Below are positions 17,029-46,526 of a stretch of 61,861 nt of DNA, piece after piece. The notes beneath the pieces are model-generated. The model saw only the letters and a list, made by a program, of their open reading frames with translations, had not been told where the DNA came from and did not search any database. Both the position numbers and the translations under genes were made by a program. Within the stretch, counting starts at the first letter, position 1. Each line of letters begins with the position of its first letter. The stretch comes from Eubacteriales bacterium (GTDB lineage Bacteria; Bacillota; Clostridia; Oscillospirales; CAG-272): positions 1-61,861 of the forward strand of contig JAZOSN010000042.1 of NCBI GenBank assembly GCA_045657105.1, written 5' to 3'.

Positions 17029-17171
17029 TGTTTTCACTCCTGTATAAGTAATCATCTTATTATATAACATTTAGCCTCTTATGTCAAGAGAATTTCCCGA
17101 GTTTTTTCGTTAAAACTCTTGACAGAACTGTAACTTTGTTGTATACTCTATATGAAAATTGCATATCTCGA

Positions 17172-17260
17172 ACAGTCAGGGGTGCTGCATAGCGGCTGAG
17201 ACGGTGACACACCGAACCCTTTAACCTGATACGGATAATACCGGCGGAGGGAGATTTGTC
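17172..17260 (+). ncRNA. TPP riboswitch aptamer
   Basis: AGGGGTGC..GCTGAGA..ACCC..AACCTGAT..GGATAATACC..CGGAGGGA consensus; upstream of thiT. Confidence 0.95.
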
Positions 17261-17276
17261 AGAAAATGTATCTCAC

Positions 17277-21238: not shown

Positions 21239-21310
21239 GCTGGTGTGGCTCAATGGCAGAGCAGCTGATTTGTAATCAGCAGGTTGATGGTTCGACTCCG
21301 TTCACCAGCT
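21239..21310 (+). tRNA. tRNA-Thr(TGT)
   Basis: GCTGGTG/CACCAGC acceptor stem, GCTGA-TTTGTAA-TCAGC anticodon arm, GGTTCGACTCC T arm; no encoded CCA. Confidence 0.97.
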
Positions 21311-21347: not shown

Positions 21348-21430
21348 GGGGGAATTCCCGAGCGGCCAAAGGGGGCAGACTGTAAATCTGTTGTGCATTC
21401 ACTTCGGTGGTCCGAATCCACCTTCCCCCA
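21348..21430 (+). tRNA. tRNA-Tyr(GTA)
   Basis: GGGGGAA/TTCCCCC acceptor stem, GCAGA-CTGTAAA-TCTGT anticodon arm, long variable arm; no encoded CCA. Confidence 0.96.
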
Positions 21431-35661: not shown

Positions 35662-38532
35662 ATGTTTACAAAGCTCCTTGCACGCGGACTTGCACTTTTG
35701 CTCGTCCTCGTTACGCTTCTCTCGCTTATGACCGCCTGTGTGCAAAACACCGGCGAAAGCACCGACACCGGCGAAGGTGACCGCACTCAGAACGACGGCA
35801 CAGACGGCACCGATACTCAGACGCCGCCTGCTCCCGAAGCACCGGTCGTCGAGGAAAACCCCGCTATCAAGATAACCGAGCTTATGGTCGTAAACACCGT
35901 CGGCGCAGAGGACTTGGGCGGCAAGACCTCGCCTTGGATCGAATTTTTCAACACGAGCGATGCCGAGGTCGATCTTTCACAGTATTCTATTCGCGTGGAC
36001 ACGAGCGCGGATACTCCCCTGCCTGCCATAAAGCTCGCTTCGGGTGAGTATGCTCTCGTTTTCGCAAACGGCGAAAGCACCGAAAGCTCGATTGCACTCA
36101 CGCTTGCCTCGAAGGGCGTCGTTACGCTCACACACGGCAAGGCGATATGCGAAAGCTTCCTTTACGTCAACAAAACCGCAAACCACTCGTTCGTAAGAGC
36201 AAACGGAAGTGAAACTCCCTTCCCTACGCCCGGATACGAAAACGTGCGCGAGAAGGACAATCTTATAATCAGTGAGCTTATGTCGACAAACTCGCTATTC
36301 CCGATAAACGGAGTGGACTGCGACTGGATCGAGCTCTACAACGGCTCGGACTACGCGATCGACCTGTCAGACTACTATGCCGCGACAGACTCGACAGAGC
36401 CCTACAAGGCAAGACTGCCCGAGACAATTCTTGAAAGCGGTCAGTACACCGTTCTCGCCTGTGAAAAGGATCTCCCCTTCAAGCTCTCAAAGGACGGCGA
36501 GAGCGTCTATATTACCCGTAACGACGGCGTTCTTGCCGCATCTGTCATCTACGAAGCGATGGAGAAAAACACCGCTTGGACATACGACAGAGGCATCGTT
36601 GACTACCCGTCGCCCGGATACGAAAACACCGAGAGCGGCTCGACTCTCGCCATAACCTCGCGCAAGGGACTCGTTATATCCGAGGTCGTTTCCTCGAACA
36701 CGAAATATTCGCCCTTCAACAAAAAATACTGCGATATGGTCGAGATATACAACGCGTCGAGCGAGCCGATCGACCTTTCAAAATATTTCCTCTCGGACAA
36801 AGACAGCACGCCTCTTCTCTACCGTCTGCCCGAGATCACGCTTGAAAGCGGTGCTTACTACGTTATCTACTGTGACACCGAAGTAAGCGGTGCGGCACCC
36901 ATCGGAATTTCGTCCGACGGAGAGAACATCTGGCTAAATCGTGAGGATGGATACGTTTCGGACGCGCTTGCCGTTCCCGACATTCCTGTAAACCGCGCTT
37001 GGGGACGCTACGGCGACAGACTCATCTATTTCGCAACTCCTACGCCCGGAAAGGCAAATCCCGACGGATATGAAACCATAACGACAACGCCGCTCGCAAG
37101 CTCGCCGAGCGGCATTTACACCGACACCCAGAGAGTAACTCTCTCGGGCGAGGGCACGATATATTACACCACCGACGGCACGAAGCCGTCTACCGCGTCG
37201 GCAAAATACAACGGAGAAACGATAGAGGTCAGTAAAACGATGGCGATCCGCGCGATAGCCTACTCGGGCGACAAGATCCCCTCGTACTCTGTGACCTACA
37301 ACTATTTCATCAAAATTCCCGAGTACACTCTGCCGGTCATCAAGATCTCGATGTCAGACGACGATCTTTTCGGATCAAACGGAATATACACCAGATACAA
37401 TTCCAAGATCGAAAGACAGGCGAACTGCGCCTTTTACGTTGACGGAAACGAGGAGTTCTCTATCGACTGCGGAATAAAGGTTTTCGGCGCGTACAGCCGA
37501 AGATTTCCGAAAAAGAGCTTTCAGCTCGAATTCCGTGCAAGCTACGGCAAGGGACGTCTTGAATATCAGGTCTTCGAAAATATGAGCCTTGACAGCTTCA
37601 ACAACATCGTTCTGAGAAGCGGCTCGCAAAACTGCTACGCTACCGACTCGATGATGGCGGACGAGTACGTCGCCTCGCTTGCCGCGTATAGCGGATATAT
37701 GTCCGAGGTGCTCGTTCAGGCGTACAGACCTTGTCACCTCTATCTCAACGGAGAATACTGGGGAATATATTTTATCCGCGAAAAGGTGGACGACGATTTT
37801 ATCGCAGACCATTTCGATGTACCCAAGGACAGTGTGACGATCATCGACTGGACGAACACACTGAACACGGGCAGTTCGAGTCAGGGTTGGAGCACGATCT
37901 GGAAGAACGTCTATACCAAAAAGCTAAATTTTGCAAACGACGACAACTACAAGTGGCTTGCCGATCAGATAGATCTCGAAAGCTTTTCGGATATGATAAT
38001 AATGAGAATGTGGGCGGGCGACAAGGATCTCCCGAACATCAGAGCGTTCAAATCTCCCTACTACGACGACGGAAAATGGCATTTTATCCTGCACGACAAC
38101 GATATGAGCCTGCGCGCAAACTGGACCAGATTCAACCTGTTTTTAAACGATAGCAGTACGAAAAAGACTCACGCGCTTTTCAGAGCTCTTATGGAAAACA
38201 AGCAGTACCGCATATATTTCCTCGACAGGCTTGCTTATCAACTGAGCACCACGCTTTCGGTGGAAAACGCTACGGCGCGCCTTGACGAGATGGTCGCCGA
38301 GCTCGAAAATGATATGCCCTATCAGATCGCGCGTTGGAAAAACGACAACAATTCTTATATGACTCACCTGCCGAATATGGCGAAATGGAGAGAAAATCTC
38401 GATTATCTCTATTACTGTGTGAGCGATCTCAAAATACAGAGATTCGTTCAGGACGCCGCAAATGCGCTATCTCTGAACAAAGAAGGGATCGCGAAATATA
38501 TGGGCGAGGAATTTGCGAAATATATGCCCTGA
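35662..38532 (+). CDS. CotH kinase-family lipoprotein with three lamin-tail domains and a chitobiase/FN3-like domain
   Basis: Lipobox MTAC; 3x I(T/S)E(L/V)..N..W/MIE.YN; IYYTTDG; KKSF, LRSG, LYLNGEYWGIYFIREK, W.FIL.D.D. Confidence 0.85.
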   Translation: MFTKLLARGLALLLVLVTLLSLMTACVQNTGESTDTGEGDRTQNDGTDGTDTQTPPAPEAPVVEENPAIKITELMVVNTVGAEDLGGKTSPWIEFFNTSDAEVDLSQYSIRVDTSADTPLPAIKLASGEYALVFANGESTESSIALTLASKGVVTLTHGKAICESFLYVNKTANHSFVRANGSETPFPTPGYENVREKDNLIISELMSTNSLFPINGVDCDWIELYNGSDYAIDLSDYYAATDSTEPYKARLPETILESGQYTVLACEKDLPFKLSKDGESVYITRNDGVLAASVIYEAMEKNTAWTYDRGIVDYPSPGYENTESGSTLAITSRKGLVISEVVSSNTKYSPFNKKYCDMVEIYNASSEPIDLSKYFLSDKDSTPLLYRLPEITLESGAYYVIYCDTEVSGAAPIGISSDGENIWLNREDGYVSDALAVPDIPVNRAWGRYGDRLIYFATPTPGKANPDGYETITTTPLASSPSGIYTDTQRVTLSGEGTIYYTTDGTKPSTASAKYNGETIEVSKTMAIRAIAYSGDKIPSYSVTYNYFIKIPEYTLPVIKISMSDDDLFGSNGIYTRYNSKIERQANCAFYVDGNEEFSIDCGIKVFGAYSRRFPKKSFQLEFRASYGKGRLEYQVFENMSLDSFNNIVLRSGSQNCYATDSMMADEYVASLAAYSGYMSEVLVQAYRPCHLYLNGEYWGIYFIREKVDDDFIADHFDVPKDSVTIIDWTNTLNTGSSSQGWSTIWKNVYTKKLNFANDDNYKWLADQIDLESFSDMIIMRMWAGDKDLPNIRAFKSPYYDDGKWHFILHDNDMSLRANWTRFNLFLNDSSTKKTHALFRALMENKQYRIYFLDRLAYQLSTTLSVENATARLDEMVAELENDMPYQIARWKNDNNSYMTHLPNMAKWRENLDYLYYCVSDLKIQRFVQDAANALSLNKEGIAKYMGEEFAKYMP

Positions 38533-40038: not shown

Positions 40039-42111
40039 TTATATTCCGCCGCTTGCCACCGATCTTGCCGCGTCAAACGCGCTATGCAGTATGTCAATAT
40101 CGTCGCAAAGATTTGCCATACGGAAGTTGGGCGCTCCGTGTTGACGAAGATCTCTGCCTGCCGATGCAAGGAAATCTCCGGGGCCTCGAAGGGCGAGGTC
40201 TGCCTCGGCTATACGGTAGCCGTCGTTTGTCGAGCAGAGCGAATCAAGACGCTTTTTAGACTGCTCGGCAGGGTTGTCGCTCACGAGTATACACCAGGAT
40301 TTATGCTTGCCGCGTCCGACTCGCCCTCTTAGCTGATGAAGCTGAGAAAGTCCGAAGCGCTCGGCGTTTTCGATAATCATAAGCGTAGCGTTCGGCACGT
40401 TAACTCCAACCTCTATAACCGTCGTCGATACGAGCACCGAGATATTTCCGGAAACGAACTCCGACATTATCTTATCCTTATCGGCGGACGGCATTTTTGA
40501 GTGCAGACAGGCAATTTTAATATCGGGAAATTCGTCCGCGAGAGCCTGAGCATACTCGGTCGCGTTTTTGAGCTTGCCTGCGCCCTCGTTTATCGGATTT
40601 CCGAAAAAGTCAACCAGAGCCGAGGTGTCGGTTTCGCTATCCTTCAAATCGCTCGTGCTAGCCTCGATAGACGGGCAGACGATATATACCTGACGTCCTT
40701 CGAGCGCCTGCTTATGAACAAATCCTTTCAGGCGCGCTCTGTACTGCTCGTCAACGAGGAAGGTCGAAACCTTCTGTCTGCCTGGCGGCAGAGTATCCAC
40801 CGCGCTATGATCGAGGTCGCCGTAGATCGACATCGCGAGCGTTCGCGGTATCGGCGTTGCGCTCATCGCGAGAACGTGCAGATCCTTTCCCTTTGCGGCA
40901 AGGCTTTCGCGTTGATTAACTCCAAAGCGGTGTTGCTCGTCTGTAACGGCAAGAGCAAGATCTGCAAACTCTACACCCTGCGAAAGAAGCGCGTGCGTTC
41001 CGATCACAACCCCCGCCTCGCCCGAGGCTATCTCGGCACAGGCGGCGCTTTTCTTTGTCTTTGTCATACTTCCGACGAGAAGCGTACATTTTATTCCAAG
41101 CCTTCCGAAAAGCTCGGAGAGATCGTTATAATGCTGGACTGCAAGTATTTCGGTAGGCGCCATAAACGCTCCCTGACGCGAGCTTTTGGCAGCAAGATAG
41201 AGTGCCGCCGCCGCGCAGATCGTCTTTCCGCTTCCGACGTCGCCCGAAACAAGGCGATGCATCGCCTTTCCCGAGCCCATATCCGAATATATATCGCGTA
41301 TTACCCTTGCCTGTGCATCGGTCAGAGTAAAGGGAAGCACGTTTAAAAATGCGCGTTTATCCGCGTCCGAAAGCGTGAGCACAGCTCCCGGGCGTCCCTC
41401 GCGCTTTTTCGCGTTCTTCATTATCGAGAGCGCAAACTCGAAGAGCTCCTCGAACACAAAATACCTTCTCGCCTTATCAAGCTGTGCGAGATTTTGCGGA
41501 TCGTGTATTATCTTTATCGCCTCAAAAAGGCTTATAAGCGAGTTTTCCTGTCTTATATTATCGGGAATGACCTCGTCGCCGACCTCAGCGCTCTGAATAG
41601 CAAGCGAGATAGTGTTTCGGACGATCTTTTGCGAAAGTCCGGCAGTCAAGGGATATATAGCGTAAAAATCGGGGAGCGCACGCGAAAGCGCGGTCGATTC
41701 AAAATCAGGTGAGGACATATTCCACGAGCTTTTGCTTCTCGTGACCTTTCCGTAAAAGCGGAAGGTTTCGCCCGTGTGGAAAAGCTGCTTTACGTATGGT
41801 TGATTGAAAAAGACGATCTGACATTTTCCGCTATCGTCAAATGCAGTGAATTTCGTAAGCGTCATTCCTCTTTTAACGCTCACCGACTTCGGCTCGCAGG
41901 AAACGGTGAGTATCATCGACGAGGTTTCGCCCGACATCGCCGCCTCGCAGAGAGTCTTGACGTCGCCTCTGTTCTGATAGGCCCTCGGAAAGAAGCGGAG
42001 CAGGTCACCGACCGTGAAAACTCCGAGCGTTGCAAAAAGCTGAGCGCGTTTTTCGCCGATCCCCGAAAGCGCCGTTATCGGAGAGGTCATAGTTATCTTT
42101 TTGTCTGCCAC
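40039..42111 (-). CDS. recG: ATP-dependent DNA helicase RecG
   Basis: GDVGSGKT, APTEILA, DEQHRFG, SATPIPR, QLRGRVGRG, RGPGD; GTG start after AAGGAG. Confidence 0.97.
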   Translation of the reverse strand: MADKKITMTSPITALSGIGEKRAQLFATLGVFTVGDLLRFFPRAYQNRGDVKTLCEAAMSGETSSMILTVSCEPKSVSVKRGMTLTKFTAFDDSGKCQIVFFNQPYVKQLFHTGETFRFYGKVTRSKSSWNMSSPDFESTALSRALPDFYAIYPLTAGLSQKIVRNTISLAIQSAEVGDEVIPDNIRQENSLISLFEAIKIIHDPQNLAQLDKARRYFVFEELFEFALSIMKNAKKREGRPGAVLTLSDADKRAFLNVLPFTLTDAQARVIRDIYSDMGSGKAMHRLVSGDVGSGKTICAAAALYLAAKSSRQGAFMAPTEILAVQHYNDLSELFGRLGIKCTLLVGSMTKTKKSAACAEIASGEAGVVIGTHALLSQGVEFADLALAVTDEQHRFGVNQRESLAAKGKDLHVLAMSATPIPRTLAMSIYGDLDHSAVDTLPPGRQKVSTFLVDEQYRARLKGFVHKQALEGRQVYIVCPSIEASTSDLKDSETDTSALVDFFGNPINEGAGKLKNATEYAQALADEFPDIKIACLHSKMPSADKDKIMSEFVSGNISVLVSTTVIEVGVNVPNATLMIIENAERFGLSQLHQLRGRVGRGKHKSWCILVSDNPAEQSKKRLDSLCSTNDGYRIAEADLALRGPGDFLASAGRDLRQHGAPNFRMANLCDDIDILHSAFDAARSVASGGI

Positions 42112-42199
42112 TCGGACGTCCTCCTTTAAAGAAATTTCTTAATAAAATGATACCATATAATACCCTCTTTGTCAAGACAAGCGATTTTTGCAAAAAACA

Positions 42200-42228
42200 T
42201 TGACAAAAGCTTCTCTTAGTGCTATAAT
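42200..42228 (+). promoter_or_regulatory. sigma-A promoter
   Basis: TTGACA-17bp-TATAAT with TG extension; predicted TSS near 42235. Confidence 0.85.
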
Positions 42229-42234
42229 GTTCCT

Positions 42235-42388
42235 GTCACACAATTCAATAATTTTGCACCCTTAGGGAAACTATATCTTTGTAAAAAGATGTTTCTCTCT
42301 TTTCTGTGTCCCTATGGGTGATAGAATTGTGTGACGACAATGAGAGATTCACTTTTTCGTGCGTCTCTTGTTGGAGACGCACTTTTTT
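42235..42388 (+). ncRNA. Unassigned structured 5' leader with terminator/antiterminator
   Basis: 12-bp P1 (42235-46/42324-35), inner 12-bp stem with 1 mismatch, GUAA-capped hairpin, terminator 42359-42388 and alternative helix 42338-52/42359-73. Confidence 0.7.
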
Positions 42389-42414
42389 ATTTTACATTCA
42401 AGGAGGAAACAGAA

Positions 42415-45400
42415 ATGACGAAAAAACTGATTTTGTTGTGCGTTGCTTTTGTGGCAGTGCTCTCGGCAGTTATATTGTCGGCAGTACTGACTATGTCGGC
42501 AGAGGAGGTGACGGAGTATAGTATTACATTTACAGACACCGAATACTCGGAGTACCTTTATCTTTATACCGGCCTCGAAAAAGACAAAGCCACCGAAGGG
42601 ACGGAAGTGTACGTATATTTTGATTGTTATGACGAAGAGTCCGAGTATTACAATTATGTACTTGCAGGAATACGTGTAAACGGCGGAGAGCTTATAAAAG
42701 CAGTTGGAGCCAACTACTATGCCAGCTTCACAATGCCTGCGGAGAACGTTGAGATTGAGGCTATACTTGAAAAGACGTATGGCATCACGTTTACGGGTAC
42801 AGAATATTTGAGCTTTTCTAGATCATATTTTTACGAGGACGAAGACGGAAATATAACAAATGTATCCATCAGTGGAGTAGACAGAGCCACTGAAGGGGCG
42901 GAAGTGACGGTATGGTTTGAATGTAATGACGAGGAATCTGAGCATTACAATCACGTACTTACAGGAATACGTGTAAACGGCGGAGAGCTTATAGAAGCAG
43001 TTGAAGACACCCACGGCCTTGCCTACTTCACGATGCCCGCAGAAGACGTTGAGATTGAGGCTATACTTGAAAAGGCGTATACCATAACGTTTACCGACAC
43101 AGAATACTCTGAATATATTCATACCCGTCACGGTATAGCCACCGAAGGGACGGAGGTGACGGTATGGTTTAATTGTGATGACGAAGAATCCGAGTATTAC
43201 AATTATGTACTTGCAGGAATACGTGTAAACGGCGGAGAGCTTATAAAAGCAGAGATGCACGACTATACCGACTTCGAAATGCCCGCAGAAGACGTTGAGA
43301 TTGAGGTTGTGCTTGAAAAGGCGTATGACATAACTTCGCCGGATTATCCTGATCTGCGGGTGTCCTACGAAAGCGCAAACGGTGGGTGGTATGTTTGTAG
43401 TTCCGCGCCCGAAGGCACAAAAATAAGAATCAGAACTCGCAGCTTGGAAATTCCCGAAGAACATCGCGTTGTCGGTGCATATATCAACGGGACGAAATAT
43501 TCCGTTGATGAGGAGGGATATATATACTTCACCATGCCTGACGAGGATGTTGAGATTGAATTTGTCGTCTCGCCAAAGAGATCTATTACGGTAGTCGGTG
43601 AAGGTTCGGAGCATATTAGGTTAAATGTACTTGATAACAGTGCTTTCGCAGGCACGCTTGTTAATGTTTATTATTATAAGTCTACATCTCGTCTAGAAGA
43701 GATAATAGTTGACGGCGAAACGATTCCCGCAAATGAAAACGGAGACGCCTACTTCACAATGCCCGATCACGACGTAGTGGTTACTCTGGTATCCGCTGAC
43801 AAATATCAAATTACTGTTAATCTTGATAATGCAAGCAGTGTAATTTTGGATAACCTCGATTATATAGGCATAGCATGTAATAACTTTGTTGTCGAAGTTC
43901 AAAACTCTGATACTGTTGCGGCAGGAAACACCGTGAATATAATCAGTCCTATATATAGAGTTGGATCAGACATTTTCGGTTTTTCCGCCCCTGTTATTTC
44001 CTACATTTATGTAAATGGCGAAAAAATCACTTCAAACAGTAATGTGTTCGAATTTACTATGCCGAATGAAGACGTTGAAATTGTTCTTGTCACCGAGCTT
44101 TACAAGCTGACAACAGCCAATGAAGACATTGAATTTCTAATCGAAATACATGAAGATTATTGGCAACCTACAATTTGCGCAAAAGAAGGTTCTATTATAG
44201 CCATTCTGTATAATGGTGATGAAGAGCTTGCCGGCGCATATGTAAACGGCGAAAAGATCAACGCAGACGAAAGCGGCAATATAGAATTTACCATGCCCGC
44301 AGAGGACGTTCAGGTTGAGCTTATATTTGCCTCCGTCTATGAGATCACCGTAGACGAGGATTTCGAATATGACTGCAACGTTTGGATAGATTTTTGGACC
44401 GATAACGGTTACAACTGCTTCGTTGCGGGACAAGAGGTCGAGTTGAGATACTTTAAGGAAGCCGGTTGGGTAGGCTTCACGGTAAACGGTGAAGAAATTG
44501 ACTTTACCGTGATCGAAGAAGACGACTATAATATAACGGTCATCTTCATTATGCCGGACAACAACGTTCTTATCGAAGGAATCTACGACGACACTCCGTA
44601 CACTATAACCGTTGATTCCGATTATGGCGTGTTCGTTCCTTCCTCAGCACTCGTAAATGAATATATATTTATTCAGGCAGAGCACGTTCCCGGATACACG
44701 CTGTCTATGACTCTTAACGGAATCGGTTACGACGAATTCACCGGTGGCGATCCGGACGGATTCCATATGCCTGCCGAAAATCTTTCGATAGTTATCACCT
44801 ACACCGCTAACGATACTAATCCCGAGGAGATCACCTTTGAGGCAGACATAGATGCTCTTCCGTCCGTGGGCTTCGGTTATGATTATACTCCCGACATCAA
44901 GCTTTCGGATAGTATTCTCGCCGCTATTCCCGAGGAAATGCGTGATGAAATAGAATTCATCTGGTTTGCATCAGACGAGGCGTTCCCCACACTTACATTT
45001 GATAATTACGAGGAATTCTTTACACTATATCAAATGGGATACGATCAAGCTCTTTCGACATTTGTTGATGGCTATAACTATGGAGCAGCATTTGCGATAG
45101 TCACCGACAAAAACTATGTTTTCGCATCTGACTTTGCAATAATCAACGGAGTAGAAGTCCCGATAACCGTTCTTCGTGTAGATATTGGAGTCGAGGAGAT
45201 CTATGGAACGGTAGTGTTCTTCGAGTTCGAACTCGCAGAGCTTGTCGAAAAGGACGTTTCGCTCGACCTCACGGTTAAAGACCTTCCTTCCGAAGGTGAT
45301 TCAGTTTACGACAGCGAAATAGATTTCGAGCTTCCTATCGATGCGGATTACGTTGTAGAAGATTTCCTGTGGCTTTACTCCTCTGACGGAGAGTTCCCCG

Positions 45401-45864
45401 AGATCAACAGCTTCGAGGATTTTAATTCTCTTGAAGACTTTATGGTAGAGTACGACGCAGTGTTTGTAAGCGAAGGAAAATACGCTATTCTACTTTTAGT
45501 TTCGGTTGATTACGGCACAAACATCACCGACGGAACGATCATCTTCAACGGTAAGATAATTACAGCAAGGGTAATTACTCAGGAAGAGCTTGAAGCTTCT
45601 ATGATGGCAAGCGGAAACCTCGTATACGTTCTCGTTGAGTTTGAGATTTCCGACGACGGCGCCATAGTTCCCGCAGAAATTCTCGGTGACGCGCCTGTCG
45701 GAGATGAGGACAATGACGGAGATCAGGAAAACATCGGAAACAATCCCGAAACCGGAGATGGAAATTACACATCACTGTTTGTATCTATTCTCACGGCTGT
45801 AATGGTTTTTGGTGTGTTTGTAATTGTTATGTCCGTAAAAAAATCAAAAAGAAATAGAACCTGA
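42415..45864 (+). CDS. Large acidic cell-wall-anchored protein with tandem InlB-B/Flg_new-like repeats
   Basis: Signal peptide; about 9 repeats ending F.MPxE(D/N)V; C-terminal NPETGD + TM + KKSKRNRT sortase-type signal; ATG after AAGGAGG. Confidence 0.85.
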   Translation: MTKKLILLCVAFVAVLSAVILSAVLTMSAEEVTEYSITFTDTEYSEYLYLYTGLEKDKATEGTEVYVYFDCYDEESEYYNYVLAGIRVNGGELIKAVGANYYASFTMPAENVEIEAILEKTYGITFTGTEYLSFSRSYFYEDEDGNITNVSISGVDRATEGAEVTVWFECNDEESEHYNHVLTGIRVNGGELIEAVEDTHGLAYFTMPAEDVEIEAILEKAYTITFTDTEYSEYIHTRHGIATEGTEVTVWFNCDDEESEYYNYVLAGIRVNGGELIKAEMHDYTDFEMPAEDVEIEVVLEKAYDITSPDYPDLRVSYESANGGWYVCSSAPEGTKIRIRTRSLEIPEEHRVVGAYINGTKYSVDEEGYIYFTMPDEDVEIEFVVSPKRSITVVGEGSEHIRLNVLDNSAFAGTLVNVYYYKSTSRLEEIIVDGETIPANENGDAYFTMPDHDVVVTLVSADKYQITVNLDNASSVILDNLDYIGIACNNFVVEVQNSDTVAAGNTVNIISPIYRVGSDIFGFSAPVISYIYVNGEKITSNSNVFEFTMPNEDVEIVLVTELYKLTTANEDIEFLIEIHEDYWQPTICAKEGSIIAILYNGDEELAGAYVNGEKINADESGNIEFTMPAEDVQVELIFASVYEITVDEDFEYDCNVWIDFWTDNGYNCFVAGQEVELRYFKEAGWVGFTVNGEEIDFTVIEEDDYNITVIFIMPDNNVLIEGIYDDTPYTITVDSDYGVFVPSSALVNEYIFIQAEHVPGYTLSMTLNGIGYDEFTGGDPDGFHMPAENLSIVITYTANDTNPEEITFEADIDALPSVGFGYDYTPDIKLSDSILAAIPEEMRDEIEFIWFASDEAFPTLTFDNYEEFFTLYQMGYDQALSTFVDGYNYGAAFAIVTDKNYVFASDFAIINGVEVPITVLRVDIGVEEIYGTVVFFEFELAELVEKDVSLDLTVKDLPSEGDSVYDSEIDFELPIDADYVVEDFLWLYSSDGEFPEINSFEDFNSLEDFMVEYDAVFVSEGKYAILLLVSVDYGTNITDGTIIFNGKIITARVITQEELEASMMASGNLVYVLVEFEISDDGAIVPAEILGDAPVGDEDNDGDQENIGNNPETGDGNYTSLFVSILTAVMVFGVFVIVMSVKKSKRNRT
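42588..43326 (+). repeat. Three recently duplicated intragenic repeat domains
   Basis: Near-identical DNA blocks (e.g. CAGGAATACGTGTAAACGGCGGAGAGCTTATA x3) alternating with divergent loops. Confidence 0.9.
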
Positions 45865-45883
45865 ATTTTGATTTAAACATTCG

Positions 45884-45920
45884 GCGGTTGCAGGCAGATA
45901 CCTGCAACCGCTGTTTTTTT
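45884..45920 (+). terminator. Intrinsic terminator
   Basis: GCGGTTGCAGG..CCTGCAACCGC followed by T run. Confidence 0.85.
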
Positions 45921-46001: not shown

Positions 46002-46526
46002 ATGGAATTTGACAAAAGTGCAAGCTGCTGTTTCACAGGTCACCGAAAAATGTCGGACACTGAGAAGCAGTCGGCTTCCGACGAGATAAAAAGAATAGTC
46101 CGTACGCTCGTGCGGCATAGCGTGCGCCATTTTATCGCGGGCGGTGCGCTCGGCTTCGACACGGTCGCCGCAGTCACCCTTATAAATATGCGCGATAATG
46201 AACAGTTGACAGACGAAAACGGAAACGAGGTCAGGATCTTCCTGACGCTCGCAGTCCCCTGCCCTGAGCAGAGCGCAAGGTGGTCGTTTGCAGACCGCAC
46301 GCTTTATAACAGTATTCTCCGCTCTGCCGACGAGGTGGTAACTCTGTCCGATCACTACACGCGCGAATGTATGTTTATCCGCAACAGATATATGGTTGAC
46401 AGATCTGCCTACTGCATATCTTACGTCACACATCGCGGCGGCGGATCATATTATACTATGAACTATGCAGAAAAATCGGGGCTCGGCGTTATAAACATCG
46501 CTCCTGCCGTAAGGGGAGAAAAATGA
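46002..46526 (+). CDS. SLOG family protein (DUF1273/YpsA-like)
   Basis: CCFTGHR, GGALGFD, RNRYMVD, GGSYYT. Confidence 0.85.
   Translation: MEFDKSASCCFTGHRKMSDTEKQSASDEIKRIVRTLVRHSVRHFIAGGALGFDTVAAVTLINMRDNEQLTDENGNEVRIFLTLAVPCPEQSARWSFADRTLYNSILRSADEVVTLSDHYTRECMFIRNRYMVDRSAYCISYVTHRGGGSYYTMNYAEKSGLGVINIAPAVRGEK

What the first reader, a model, noticed from the sequence alone, without database searches (positions are those of the whole stretch)
42235..42388. Orphan riboswitch/attenuator candidate controlling a large surface protein
Seen: the predicted TSS coincides with the first base of a perfect 12-bp helix GTCACACAATTC/GAATTGTGTGAC. It encloses an asymmetric loop, an 11/12-bp helix CACCCTTAGGGA/TCCCTATGGGTG, a GUAA tetraloop hairpin and a pyrimidine tract. 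Downstream, the terminator GTGCGTCTC/GAGACGCAC-T6 is mutually exclusive with a 15-bp helix CAATGAGAGATTCAC/GTGCGTCTCTTGTTG (1 mismatch, 3 GU). TCTCTC (42294-99) can also pair with GAGAGA (42342-47) as an anti-antiterminator pseudoknot. It does not resemble riboswitches or T-boxes I recognise. Inference: a ligand-, protein- or antisense-controlled transcription switch for an adhesin; alternatively a 154-nt sRNA.
Basis: partly seen in the sequence, partly recalled or inferred. Interest (0 to 1): 0.8.

Follow-up and report, generated by a model that had tools for sequence, protein, structure and literature searches.

The report
Widespread Clostridial leader RNA attenuator
The candidate is real and belongs to a large, apparently uncatalogued family of self-promoted, structured leader RNAs with a built-in terminator switch that sit in front of surface-protein and accessory genes in gut Clostridia and in their phages.

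Summary
The 154-nt RNA folds far better than shuffles (z = -7.5).

It is not an orphan. A covariance model finds full-length copies in:
- 85 of 151 genomes of the same family
- 56 of 151 of the order
- 42 of 150 of the class, with up to 20 copies per genome
- 0 of 147 genomes of other classes of the phylum
- all 80 phage-contig loci fetched

No Rfam 15 family matches.

P1, P2, P3 and the terminator covary strongly. The segment after P1 is specifically complementary both to the terminator 5' strand (antiterminator) and to the P3 3' strand plus pyrimidine bulge (anti-antiterminator).

Most copies carry a near-consensus promoter that places the start at the first base of P1. An SD and ORF follow 13-34 nt after the terminator in 62 of 102 copies.

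The best reading is a new family of transcription-attenuation leaders whose effector is unknown. A trans-acting or dual role is not excluded.

The parts
42200..42228 (+). Sigma-70-type promoter: TTGACA, 17 nt, TG-extended TATAAT
   Evidence: 12 of 12 match. Across the family, 84 of 100 copies match at least 9 of 12. The -10 hexamer ends 6 nt before P1 in 78 of those 84.
42235..42246 (+). P1 5' strand; inferred transcription start at 42235
   Evidence: Perfect 12 bp with 42324-42335. Family P1 is 98.7% paired, and 10 of 11 pairs show changes on both sides.
42247..42256 (+). 5'-side internal loop (AAUAAUUUUG) holding the conserved (A/C)AUA
   Evidence: Unpaired in the MFE. AAUA or CAUA is present in 98 of 102 aptamer domains, but this is a short, weak motif.
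42257..42268 (+). P2 5' strand
   Evidence: Pairs with 42309-42320. Family test: a copy's own strands pair at -13.87 kcal/mol against -5.48 for strands from different copies, z = -33.9.
42270..42292 (+). P3 hairpin with apical GUAA (42281-42284); family consensus UUGGUAAAA
   Evidence: MFE. P3 pairs covary (helices 3-5). [GU]G[UC]AAA is present in 90 of 102.
42293..42305 (+). 13-nt pyrimidine 3' bulge (UUCUCUCUUUUCU). Its 5' part, with the P3 3' strand, is the anti-antiterminator partner (region A)
   Evidence: Unpaired in the MFE. The most common bulge length in the family is 14 nt. A:B complementarity is specific to each copy's own strands.
42309..42320 (+). P2 3' strand
42324..42335 (+). 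P1 3' strand
42338..42352 (+). Segment B. It is the antiterminator 5' strand, and it can instead pair with region A (GAGAGA 42342-42347 with TCTCTC 42294-42299)
   Evidence: A vs B duplex in the window is -12.3 kcal/mol. Family A:B z = -10.1 and B:T5' z = -14.8.
42353..42358 (+). U-run (UUUUUC), the loop of the antiterminator hairpin
   Evidence: Conserved UUUUUCGG ahead of the terminator in the alignments
42359..42388 (+). Intrinsic terminator (10-pair stem, UUGU loop) plus U6
   Evidence: Terminator scan. Family terminator is 99.6% paired, and 5 of 9 pairs show changes on both sides.
42400..42417 (+). Shine-Dalgarno AAGGAGG and ATG of the downstream gene
   Evidence: There is no room for another promoter between the U-tract and the SD.
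42415..45864 (+). 1149-aa secreted or surface protein with an N-terminal hydrophobic segment and a divergent InlB B-repeat match. It ends before a strong terminator at 45882-45913.

Best explanation
Window 42200-42414 is one copy of a large family of self-contained 5' leader cassettes, restricted to the window's taxonomic class (public records label the holders Clostridia). A cassette has four parts:
1. A near-consensus sigma-70 promoter.
2. A roughly 100-nt rod-like RNA that starts at +1. It runs P1, a 5' internal loop, a P2 of variable sequence, then P3 stacked on P2 with a GGUAAAA/GUAA apical loop. A pyrimidine bulge of about 14 nt lies on the 3' side.
3. A purine-rich segment B.
4. An intrinsic terminator just ahead of the SD of the regulated gene.

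Five segments form a relay of mutually exclusive helices: P3-5':A, A:B, B:T5' and T5':T3'. With P3 and the antiterminator (B:T5') formed, RNA polymerase reads into the gene. With the anti-antiterminator (A:B) and the terminator formed, a roughly 150-nt RNA is released.

Shown here: the family, the promoter position, the helices and both alternative pairings.

Inferred, not shown: the single-stranded bulge serves as a toehold from which B invades P3, so termination is the default. An unidentified effector (a small ligand or a widely conserved host RNA-binding factor) would lock the P3/bulge module and allow read-through. The direction of the switch and the effector are unknown.

The cassette drives variable surface, lipoprotein and membrane genes and accessory genes in chromosomes. 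It also drives moron-like cargo genes in temperate or other phages of the same hosts.
For: Structure
- z = -7.49 for the window copy.
- On 102 aligned copies, 93.6% of cells are paired against 77.0% when shuffled. 29 of 34 pairs change on both sides. The covariation score is 0.460 against 0.044-0.102 for slid controls.
- P2: a copy's own strands pair at -13.87 kcal/mol against -5.48 for strands from different copies, z = -33.9. A copy's own partner is the best of all in 56 of 102.

Switch
- B against T5': own -13.12 against other -8.99, z = -14.8, 0 of 5000 permutations as good.
- A against B: own -11.13 against other -8.46, z = -10.1, 0 of 5000.
- Negative control, 5' half against B: z = +0.3.
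- State energies are nearly equal: P3+AT -26.6 against AAT+T -27.4 kcal/mol.

Leader position
- 84 of 100 copies have a promoter match of at least 9 of 12, against 3 of 95 control segments. The gap to P1 is 6 nt in 78 of the 84.
- An SD-ORF starts 13-34 nt after the element in 62 of 102 copies and within 350 nt in 94 of 102.

Distribution
- 85 of 151 genomes (family), 56 of 151 (order, 20 of 30 families), 42 of 150 (class), 0 of 147 outside the class.
- 76 of 80 genome loci found by a DNA pattern were confirmed by the model.
- 80 of 80 phage-contig loci were confirmed.

Not a known family.
Against: - No expression data. No RNA run holds the stretch, and 0 reads were laid in 4 runs, so nothing was tested.
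- The effector is unidentified, and the downstream genes point to no metabolite. 45 of 87 have no Pfam match.
- Column-by-column counts are much weaker than the energy tests. The antiterminator is 77.6% paired. The 6-bp anti-antiterminator, in the window's register, is 65.1% paired against 62.6% when shuffled.
- Part of the A:B signal comes from base composition: the reversed-B control still gives z = -5.1.
- Thermodynamically, P3 and the terminator can coexist with B free. This is the MFE, the terminator is more stable than the antiterminator in 95 of 102 copies, and the platform alone folds to the terminator in 79 of 102. The relay therefore matters only kinetically, which was not tested.
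- Tandem units that each have their own promoter are not what a purely cis-acting sensor predicts.
- 8 of 102 copies have no nearby ORF by my heuristic, although 3 of the 8 have only 86-185 nt of DNA left downstream.
- Copies are related, so the permutation z-scores overstate the number of independent events.
Confidence: 0.6

Rival explanations
1. The roughly 150-nt terminated transcript is itself the functional product: an abundant trans-acting small RNA or protein or RNA decoy. Read-through into the downstream gene is secondary, or the RNA has both roles.
For: - Every unit carries its own strong promoter and terminator.
- Tandem arrays of 2-3 complete promoter-RNA-terminator units occur in many genomes. 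Examples: G017:C88 with 3 units and G178:C125 with 3 units, G223:C186 with 3 units and G049:C8, G355:C5, G380:C6, G436:C125.
- Some copies lack a nearby ORF (8 of 102).
- Copy number reaches 20 per genome.
- Phages carry the element.
Against: - In 62 of 102 copies an SD and start codon follow within 13-34 nt, with no room for another promoter. The gene therefore depends on read-through.
- The antiterminator pairing covaries, and an sRNA would not need one.
- No conserved single-stranded seed was found beyond the bulge, and the bulge covaries with an internal partner.
- No Hfq or CsrA was found in the window's genome, which is 83% complete.
Confidence: 0.22
2. A constitutive expression cassette with no sensing. 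A strong promoter, a 5'-terminal helix that stabilises the mRNA, and a leaky terminator together set a fixed low read-through. The alternative pairings only tune that leak.
For: - A helix beginning at +1 is a known type of 5' stabiliser (established knowledge, not tested here).
- The MFE keeps both the aptamer and the terminator, with B free.
- The downstream genes share no metabolic theme.
Against: - Sequence is conserved in unpaired or apical elements: [GU]G[UC]AAA in 90 of 102 and CUCU in 74 of 102.
- Two mutually exclusive long-range pairings are maintained through many compensating changes.
- The two state energies are balanced.
- All three features are hard to explain without switching.
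Confidence: 0.1
3. A mobile repeat: a MITE-like element whose P1 arms are terminal inverted repeats and which carries an outward promoter. It would be spread by transposition rather than kept as an RNA.
For: It is multi-copy, the ends are 11-13-nt inverted repeats, and it occurs in phages and beside accessory genes.
Against: - Copies within one genome are diverged (74% identity between two copies in G000), with compensating changes in the arms.
- Orientation and spacing relative to promoter, terminator, SD and ORF are fixed.
- Only one strand scores well. The reverse-strand hits are 35-38 bits against 138-152 for the forward strand.
Confidence: 0.03
4. A diverged member of a known riboswitch or leader class, for example c-di-GMP-I/II, T-box, a PyrR site or a leader-peptide attenuator.
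For: - Clostridial c-di-GMP riboswitches are likewise multi-copy, lie upstream of surface proteins and occur in phages (recalled knowledge).
- The best Rfam near-miss is the Phe leader.
Against: - Nothing reaches the gathering score for the window or for 20 diverse members.
- The Phe_leader hit scores 19.7 bits against a cut-off of 55, and its well-aligned part is the terminator.
- The AUG inside segment B is not conserved across subfamilies. Some read AAUGAGAG and others AAUCGGAG.
- No GGDEF domain was found in the genome.
Confidence: 0.03

Closest known systems
Terminator/antiterminator/anti-antiterminator attenuators: the B. subtilis pyr operon (PyrR) and the S-box (SAM-I) expression platforms
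   Same: Three or more mutually exclusive helices decide intrinsic termination in a 5' leader. An upstream element sequesters the antiterminator 5' strand so that the terminator can form.
   Different: - There is no sequence or model match.
- The anti-antiterminator here is a long-range, pseudoknot-like pairing between an internal bulge plus the P3 3' strand and the tail. It is neither a local hairpin nor P1.
- The relay has five segments.
- The effector is unknown.
- The PyrR and S-box mechanisms are cited from recalled knowledge.
E. coli trp-type leader (segments 1:2, 2:3, 3:4)
   Same: A chain of overlapping alternative pairings ends in an intrinsic terminator.
   Different: There is no conserved leader peptide. 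The AUG in segment B is not conserved and has no usable SD. Coupling to translation is therefore unlikely.
c-di-GMP-I (GEMM-I) riboswitches of Clostridia
   Same: Multi-copy per genome, placed upstream of surface or adhesion genes, also carried by phages, with a GNRA-type apical loop (recalled knowledge).
   Different: There is no Rfam match to RF01051 or RF01786. No GGDEF cyclase was found in the window's genome. The architecture is one unbranched rod in 81 of 102 copies, not a two-arm aptamer.
Phage 'moron' cassettes (a gene flanked by its own promoter and terminator)
   Same: In phage contigs the element plus one variable cargo gene sits at a fixed place between conserved phage genes.
   Different: The terminator lies before the cargo gene, not after it. 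It belongs to a conserved structured RNA that chromosomal genes also use.
Multi-copy sibling sRNAs with CU-rich motifs (Listeria LhrC1-5, streptococcal csRNAs)
   Same: Several copies per genome, some in tandem, each with its own promoter and terminator and a pyrimidine-rich motif (recalled knowledge).
   Different: Most copies here are fused to a downstream ORF, and the pyrimidine motif covaries with a partner inside the same RNA.

Membership tests
Any Rfam 15 family | Covariance-model score at or above the family's gathering score | tested here: not met
   Whole window: only TPP and two tRNAs, all elsewhere. Region 42100-42500 at E up to 10: the best hit is Phe_leader at 19.7 bits against a cut-off of 55. 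20 diverse members: none.
Intrinsic-terminator transcription attenuator (kind, not family) | A GC-rich hairpin plus U-tract between promoter and start codon, and a competing antiterminator pairing | tested here: met
   Terminator. Family terminator 99.6% paired. B:T5' complementarity specific to each copy's own strands, z = -14.8. Actual termination and read-through were not measured.
Riboswitch (metabolite- or ion-binding) | Direct, specific ligand binding by the aptamer that changes expression | not testable with these tools
   Needs in-line probing, ITC or in vitro termination assays. The gene context gives no ligand lead.
Riboswitch (metabolite- or ion-binding) | A conserved structured aptamer with invariant unpaired nucleotides upstream of functionally coherent genes | tested here: inconclusive
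   Structure and apical-loop conservation are met. The downstream genes are heterogeneous: LRR surface proteins, lipoproteins, SLOG, XRE, defence and phage cargo.
c-di-GMP riboswitch | The organism makes c-di-GMP (GGDEF cyclase present) | tested here: not met
   0 GGDEF matches in G000, which is 83% complete. The control genomes did give matches.
Leader-peptide attenuator (Phe/trp type) | A conserved short ORF with regulatory codons, translated within the leader | tested here: not met
   The AUG at 42340 has no SD and is not conserved. Other subfamilies read AAUCGGAG at that place.
LoaP/RfaH-type specialised NusG antitermination | A NusG paralogue encoded in the genome | tested here: not met
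   Only one NusG N-terminal domain was found in G000, which is 83% complete.
MITE or other mobile repeat | Near-identical copies with terminal inverted repeats and no strand-specific context | tested here: not met
   Copies within the genome are 74% identical with compensating arm changes. Promoter, terminator and ORF context is fixed.
Hfq- or CsrA-dependent sRNA | The chaperone or partner protein is present | tested here: not met
   No Hfq or CsrA match in G000, which is 83% complete.

The most novel reading that the evidence does not exclude
This is a new riboswitch-like class, or the target of a new, widely conserved RNA-binding antiterminator. It would act as a master switch for variable cell-surface proteins in gut Clostridia. 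Their phages have captured it, either to put cargo (moron) genes under the same host signal, or to titrate that signal with decoy copies and so remodel the host surface (receptor control or superinfection exclusion).
Probability: 0.2. Interest if true: 0.9.

Novelty: new variant of a known kind. Interest (0 to 1): 0.8.

Why it matters
If this reading holds, one RNA family controls up to 20 genes per genome in roughly a third of the sampled genomes of the window's order and class, a large and mostly uncultured group that public records label gut Clostridia.

The controlled genes are mainly the variable surface repertoire: BspA-type LRR proteins, Listeria-Bacteroides repeat proteins, ChW and SLH proteins, and lipoproteins. 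Accessory and defence genes are also controlled, and the same cassette is used by the hosts' phages.

That gives three things:
- A handle on how these organisms switch their surface, which is otherwise unknown.
- A candidate new ligand or protein sensor.
- A clear five-segment folding relay that can be tested by compensatory mutation.

It also adds a high-copy family to RNA annotation. No Rfam 15 model detects it.

Tried and rejected
Expression
- No RNA holder was listed for window 42000-43200.
- Four RNA runs with the same species label gave 0 laid reads. This is no test either way.

Earlier findings

BLAST-level search
- It found matches in only 4 of 61 genomes, G000 included. A covariance model was needed.

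Alignment limits
- MAFFT with RNAalifold does not recover P2, because its sequence varies. I replaced it with an alignment-free duplex test.
- Column-based counts for the 6-bp TCTCTC:GAGAGA register are weak, because the register shifts between subfamilies.

Rejected pairings and readings
- J1/2 pairing with the freed P3 5' strand: no signal specific to a copy's own strands, z = +2.5.
- The second test (J1/2 against the distal bulge) failed. Its energies were contaminated by no-duplex values, so I discard it.
- Leader-peptide reading.
- c-di-GMP, LoaP-type NusG paralogue, and Hfq or CsrA partners. All four were checked in one genome that is 83% complete.
- MITE reading.

Literature
- Five searches of titles and full text found no description of this motif.
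- I read passages only, by term search, in PMC8040213, PMC11109978, PMC8632094, bioRxiv 10.64898/2026.10.21.760802 and PMC10690425. None describes it.
- I did not see the supplementary catalogues of PMC8040213 and PMC10690425, which hold thousands of unnamed candidates. They could contain it.

Full report
**1. The observation**

The region reads exactly as described.
- A 12-of-12 TTGACA-17-TATAAT promoter with a TG extension lies at 42200-42228.
- The -10 hexamer ends six bases before G42235, the first base of a perfect 12-bp helix (42235-42246 with 42324-42335).
- Inside that helix lie a second helix (42257-42268 with 42309-42320), a hairpin capped by GUAA (42275-42290) and a 13-nt pyrimidine tract (42293-42305).
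- After the outer helix come CAATGAGAGATTCAC (42338-42352), a U-run, a 10-pair terminator (42359-42382) and T6.
- AAGGAGG and the ATG of a 1149-aa ORF follow 12 and 27 bases later.
- The 154-nt RNA folds at -59.5 kcal/mol against -30.1 +/- 3.9 for 200 shuffles (z = -7.5).

**2. It is a family, not an orphan**

- The window's own genome holds a second copy at 74% identity, with compensating changes in P1 and P2.
- I built a covariance model from four copies. It found full-length matches in 85 of 151 genomes of the same family, in 64 of 97 genera, often several per genome.
Nearly all are gut or rumen MAGs labelled Clostridia, Oscillospiraceae, Acutalibacteraceae, Ruminococcus, Eubacteriales or Christensenellaceae.
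- The model confirmed 76 of the 80 loci fetched from that scan. Two of the four unconfirmed loci are obvious chance hits, in Bradyrhizobium and Kaiserbacteria.
- A second model, built from 102 aligned copies, gave these counts:

| Sample | Genomes with a match |
|---|---|
| Order | 56 of 151, in 20 of 30 families |
| Class | 42 of 150, up to 20, 17 and 15 copies per genome |
| Other classes of the phylum | 0 of 147 |

- The last row also serves as a specificity control.
- G000 itself has five copies.
- No Rfam 15 model reaches its threshold on the window or on 20 diverse members. The best sub-threshold hit, Phe_leader at 19.7 bits against a cut-off of 55, aligns mainly through the terminator.

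**3. Anatomy of the family**

- *Promoter.* Of 100 copies with enough upstream DNA, 84 match the sigma-70 consensus in at least 9 of 12 positions, against 3 of 95 control segments. 95 have a TG-extended -10. The RNA is therefore inferred to begin with P1.
- *Aptamer-like domain.* It folds as one unbranched hairpin in 81 of 102 copies. The order is P1 (11-13 bp), a 5' internal loop starting (A/C)AUA, a P2 of free sequence, and P3 stacked on P2 along a continuous 5' strand with an apical UUGGUAAAA. The motif [GU]G[UC]AAA is present in 90 of 102. A 3' bulge, most often 14 nt, begins YCUCU.
- *Covariation.* On the 102-row alignment, 93.6% of cells are paired (77.0% when shuffled). 29 of 34 pairs change on both sides. 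The score is 0.460 against at most 0.102 for slid registers. P1 is 98.7% paired and the terminator 99.6%.
- *P2.* Sequence alignment cannot place it in register. I tested it without an alignment, by comparing each copy's own two strands with strands taken from different copies. Own strands pair at -13.9 kcal/mol against -5.5 for strands from different copies (z = -33.9). A copy's own partner is the best of all 102 in 56 cases.

**4. The switch**

The segment between P1 and the U-run (B) is complementary to the terminator 5' strand. B is also complementary to the P3 3' strand plus the first bases of the bulge (A).

Both pairings are specific to each copy's own strands:

| Pairing | Own strands | Different copies | z | Permutations as good |
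|---|---|---|---|---|
| B:T5' | -13.1 | -9.0 | -14.8 | 0 of 5000 |
| A:B | -11.1 | -8.5 | -10.1 | 0 of 5000 |

- The 5' half of the aptamer gives no signal against B (z = +0.3). Reversed B keeps part of the signal (z = -5.1), so some of it is compositional.
- Different subfamilies use different words for A and B. Examples are CUCUC/GAGAG, GCAUGCUCU/GGAGCUAUGC, GUACCUCU/GGAGUGUAC and CGCUC/GAGCG.
- Column-based counts are weaker, because the register shifts between subfamilies.
- The summed energies of the two global states are nearly equal: P3+AT -26.6 and AAT+T -27.4 kcal/mol.
- The terminator alone is more stable than the antiterminator in 95 of 102 copies, so any decision must be kinetic.

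I infer a five-segment relay. If B can use the single-stranded bulge as a toehold to invade P3, the terminator forms. If the P3/bulge module is locked by an effector, B pairs with the nascent terminator strand and polymerase reads through. The direction of the switch and the effector are inferences, not results.

**5. What it controls**

- By a simple SD-plus-ORF rule, 94 of 102 copies have an ORF within 350 nt. In 62 of 102 it starts 13-34 nt after the element, so those genes depend on read-through.
- Of 87 downstream proteins scanned, 45 have no Pfam match. The rest are dominated by secreted or surface proteins:
  - 7 BspA-type LRR proteins plus 1 other LRR protein
  - Listeria-Bacteroides repeats, ChW, SLH and CAP
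  - PASTA/DUF4839 and zinc-ribbon membrane proteins
- Accessory genes also occur: SLOG/YpsA-like, XRE, WYL, SHOCT, T5orf172, GmrSD and EcoRI methylase.
- The genome with 20 copies shows the same picture. It adds AbrB/MazE-like and HicA-like genes.
- The five copies in the window's genome precede these genes:
  - the 1149-aa protein
  - a 687-aa lipoprotein
  - a 170-aa protein
  - a 76-aa membrane protein
  - a 91-aa zinc-ribbon protein

**6. Phages**

- All 80 loci fetched carry the element, 79 at full length. They fall into 23 clusters at about 90% identity.
- In contigs of 30-80 kb the cassette sits among phage genes. Neighbours include Thoeris inhibitors Tad3 and Tad8, NrdD/NrdG and a roughly 900-aa protein with a C-terminal HTH.
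- It precedes one variable cargo gene: a PASTA membrane protein, a DUF4839 or DUF6591 lipoprotein, two unknown families of about 170 and 350 aa, an ECF sigma factor or a small membrane protein.
- This looks like a moron hot spot. The effector, if there is one, must be common to many hosts.

**7. Effector leads checked in the window's genome (83% complete)**

No GGDEF domain, only one NusG, no Hfq and no CsrA were found. c-di-GMP, a LoaP-type paralogue and the classical sRNA chaperones are therefore not supported.

**8. Rivals**

- *Trans-acting or dual-function RNA.* Tandem arrays of complete promoter-RNA-terminator units are frequent, and some copies have no nearby ORF. Both keep this role plausible.
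- *Non-sensing expression cassette.* Possible, but it does not explain two covarying, mutually exclusive long-range pairings.
- *MITE, leader-peptide and known-riboswitch readings.* All failed their tests (see Membership tests).

**9. Novelty and limits**

- I found no description of this motif in five literature searches.
- I also found none in term-matched passages of five papers. I did not see their supplementary catalogues, which could hold an unnamed entry.
- There are no expression data.
- E-values from the shortened calibration are rough. The genomes are samples. Related copies inflate the permutation statistics.

Verdict: this is a real, strongly supported new family of attenuator leaders. 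The mechanism is of a known kind, the effector is unknown, and the family is unusually widespread and shared between hosts and phages.

Noticed in passing
window 17168-17269 (+): A TPP riboswitch at 71.8 bits. Two tRNA genes lie at 21239-21310 and 21348-21430.
   Followed up: no
window 42175-42147 (-): An 11-of-12 sigma-70-like promoter with a TG extension points the other way, towards the divergent recG gene (40039-42090, minus strand). The intergenic region therefore holds back-to-back strong promoters.
   Followed up: partly
window 35662-38532 (+): A 956-aa protein with lamin-tail domains, a CotH kinase domain and chitobiase/Fn3-associated domains. It is another large surface or spore-coat-type protein near the finding.
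   Followed up: no
window 46002-46526 (+): A YpsA/SLOG-family gene lies just downstream of the regulated ORF. SLOG/YpsA-like genes are themselves a recurrent cargo of this leader in other genomes: L022, L034, L052, L077 and L113.
   Followed up: partly
L022 (G017:C88) 1501-2087; also G178:C125, G223:C186, G049:C8, G355:C5: Two or three complete promoter-leader-terminator units stand head to tail, with only about 50 nt (the next promoter) between them, ahead of a single ORF.
   Followed up: partly
G000:C28:31491-31708 (L367) and L006 1352-1565: Long variants (214-218 nt) carry an extra hairpin inserted inside the P1-enclosed domain. They keep P1 and the expression platform.
   Followed up: partly
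L024, L026, L017, L045, L085, L086, L087 (downstream ORFs): A recurrent family of 56-70-aa cysteine-rich proteins with a motif of the form ...CCCDECDY.LLCFPEFD. It has no Pfam or PHROG match and follows the leader in several genera.
   Followed up: partly
L289, L293, L285, L339, L330 (IMG/VR contigs): A conserved phage neighbourhood has one variable gene slot behind the leader. Upstream lie Tad3 and Tad8 (Thoeris inhibitors) or NrdD/NrdG. Downstream lie a roughly 200-aa gene and a roughly 900-aa gene with a C-terminal HTH.
   Followed up: partly
L094 and L042: Contigs filed under a Corallococcus MAG and a Mailhella MAG carry full-length copies of this class-restricted (Clostridia by record labels) element. 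This suggests mis-binned contigs in those assemblies.
   Followed up: no
L015 1057-1323 (-): A bacterial large SRP RNA lies about 180 nt upstream of one family member.
   Followed up: no
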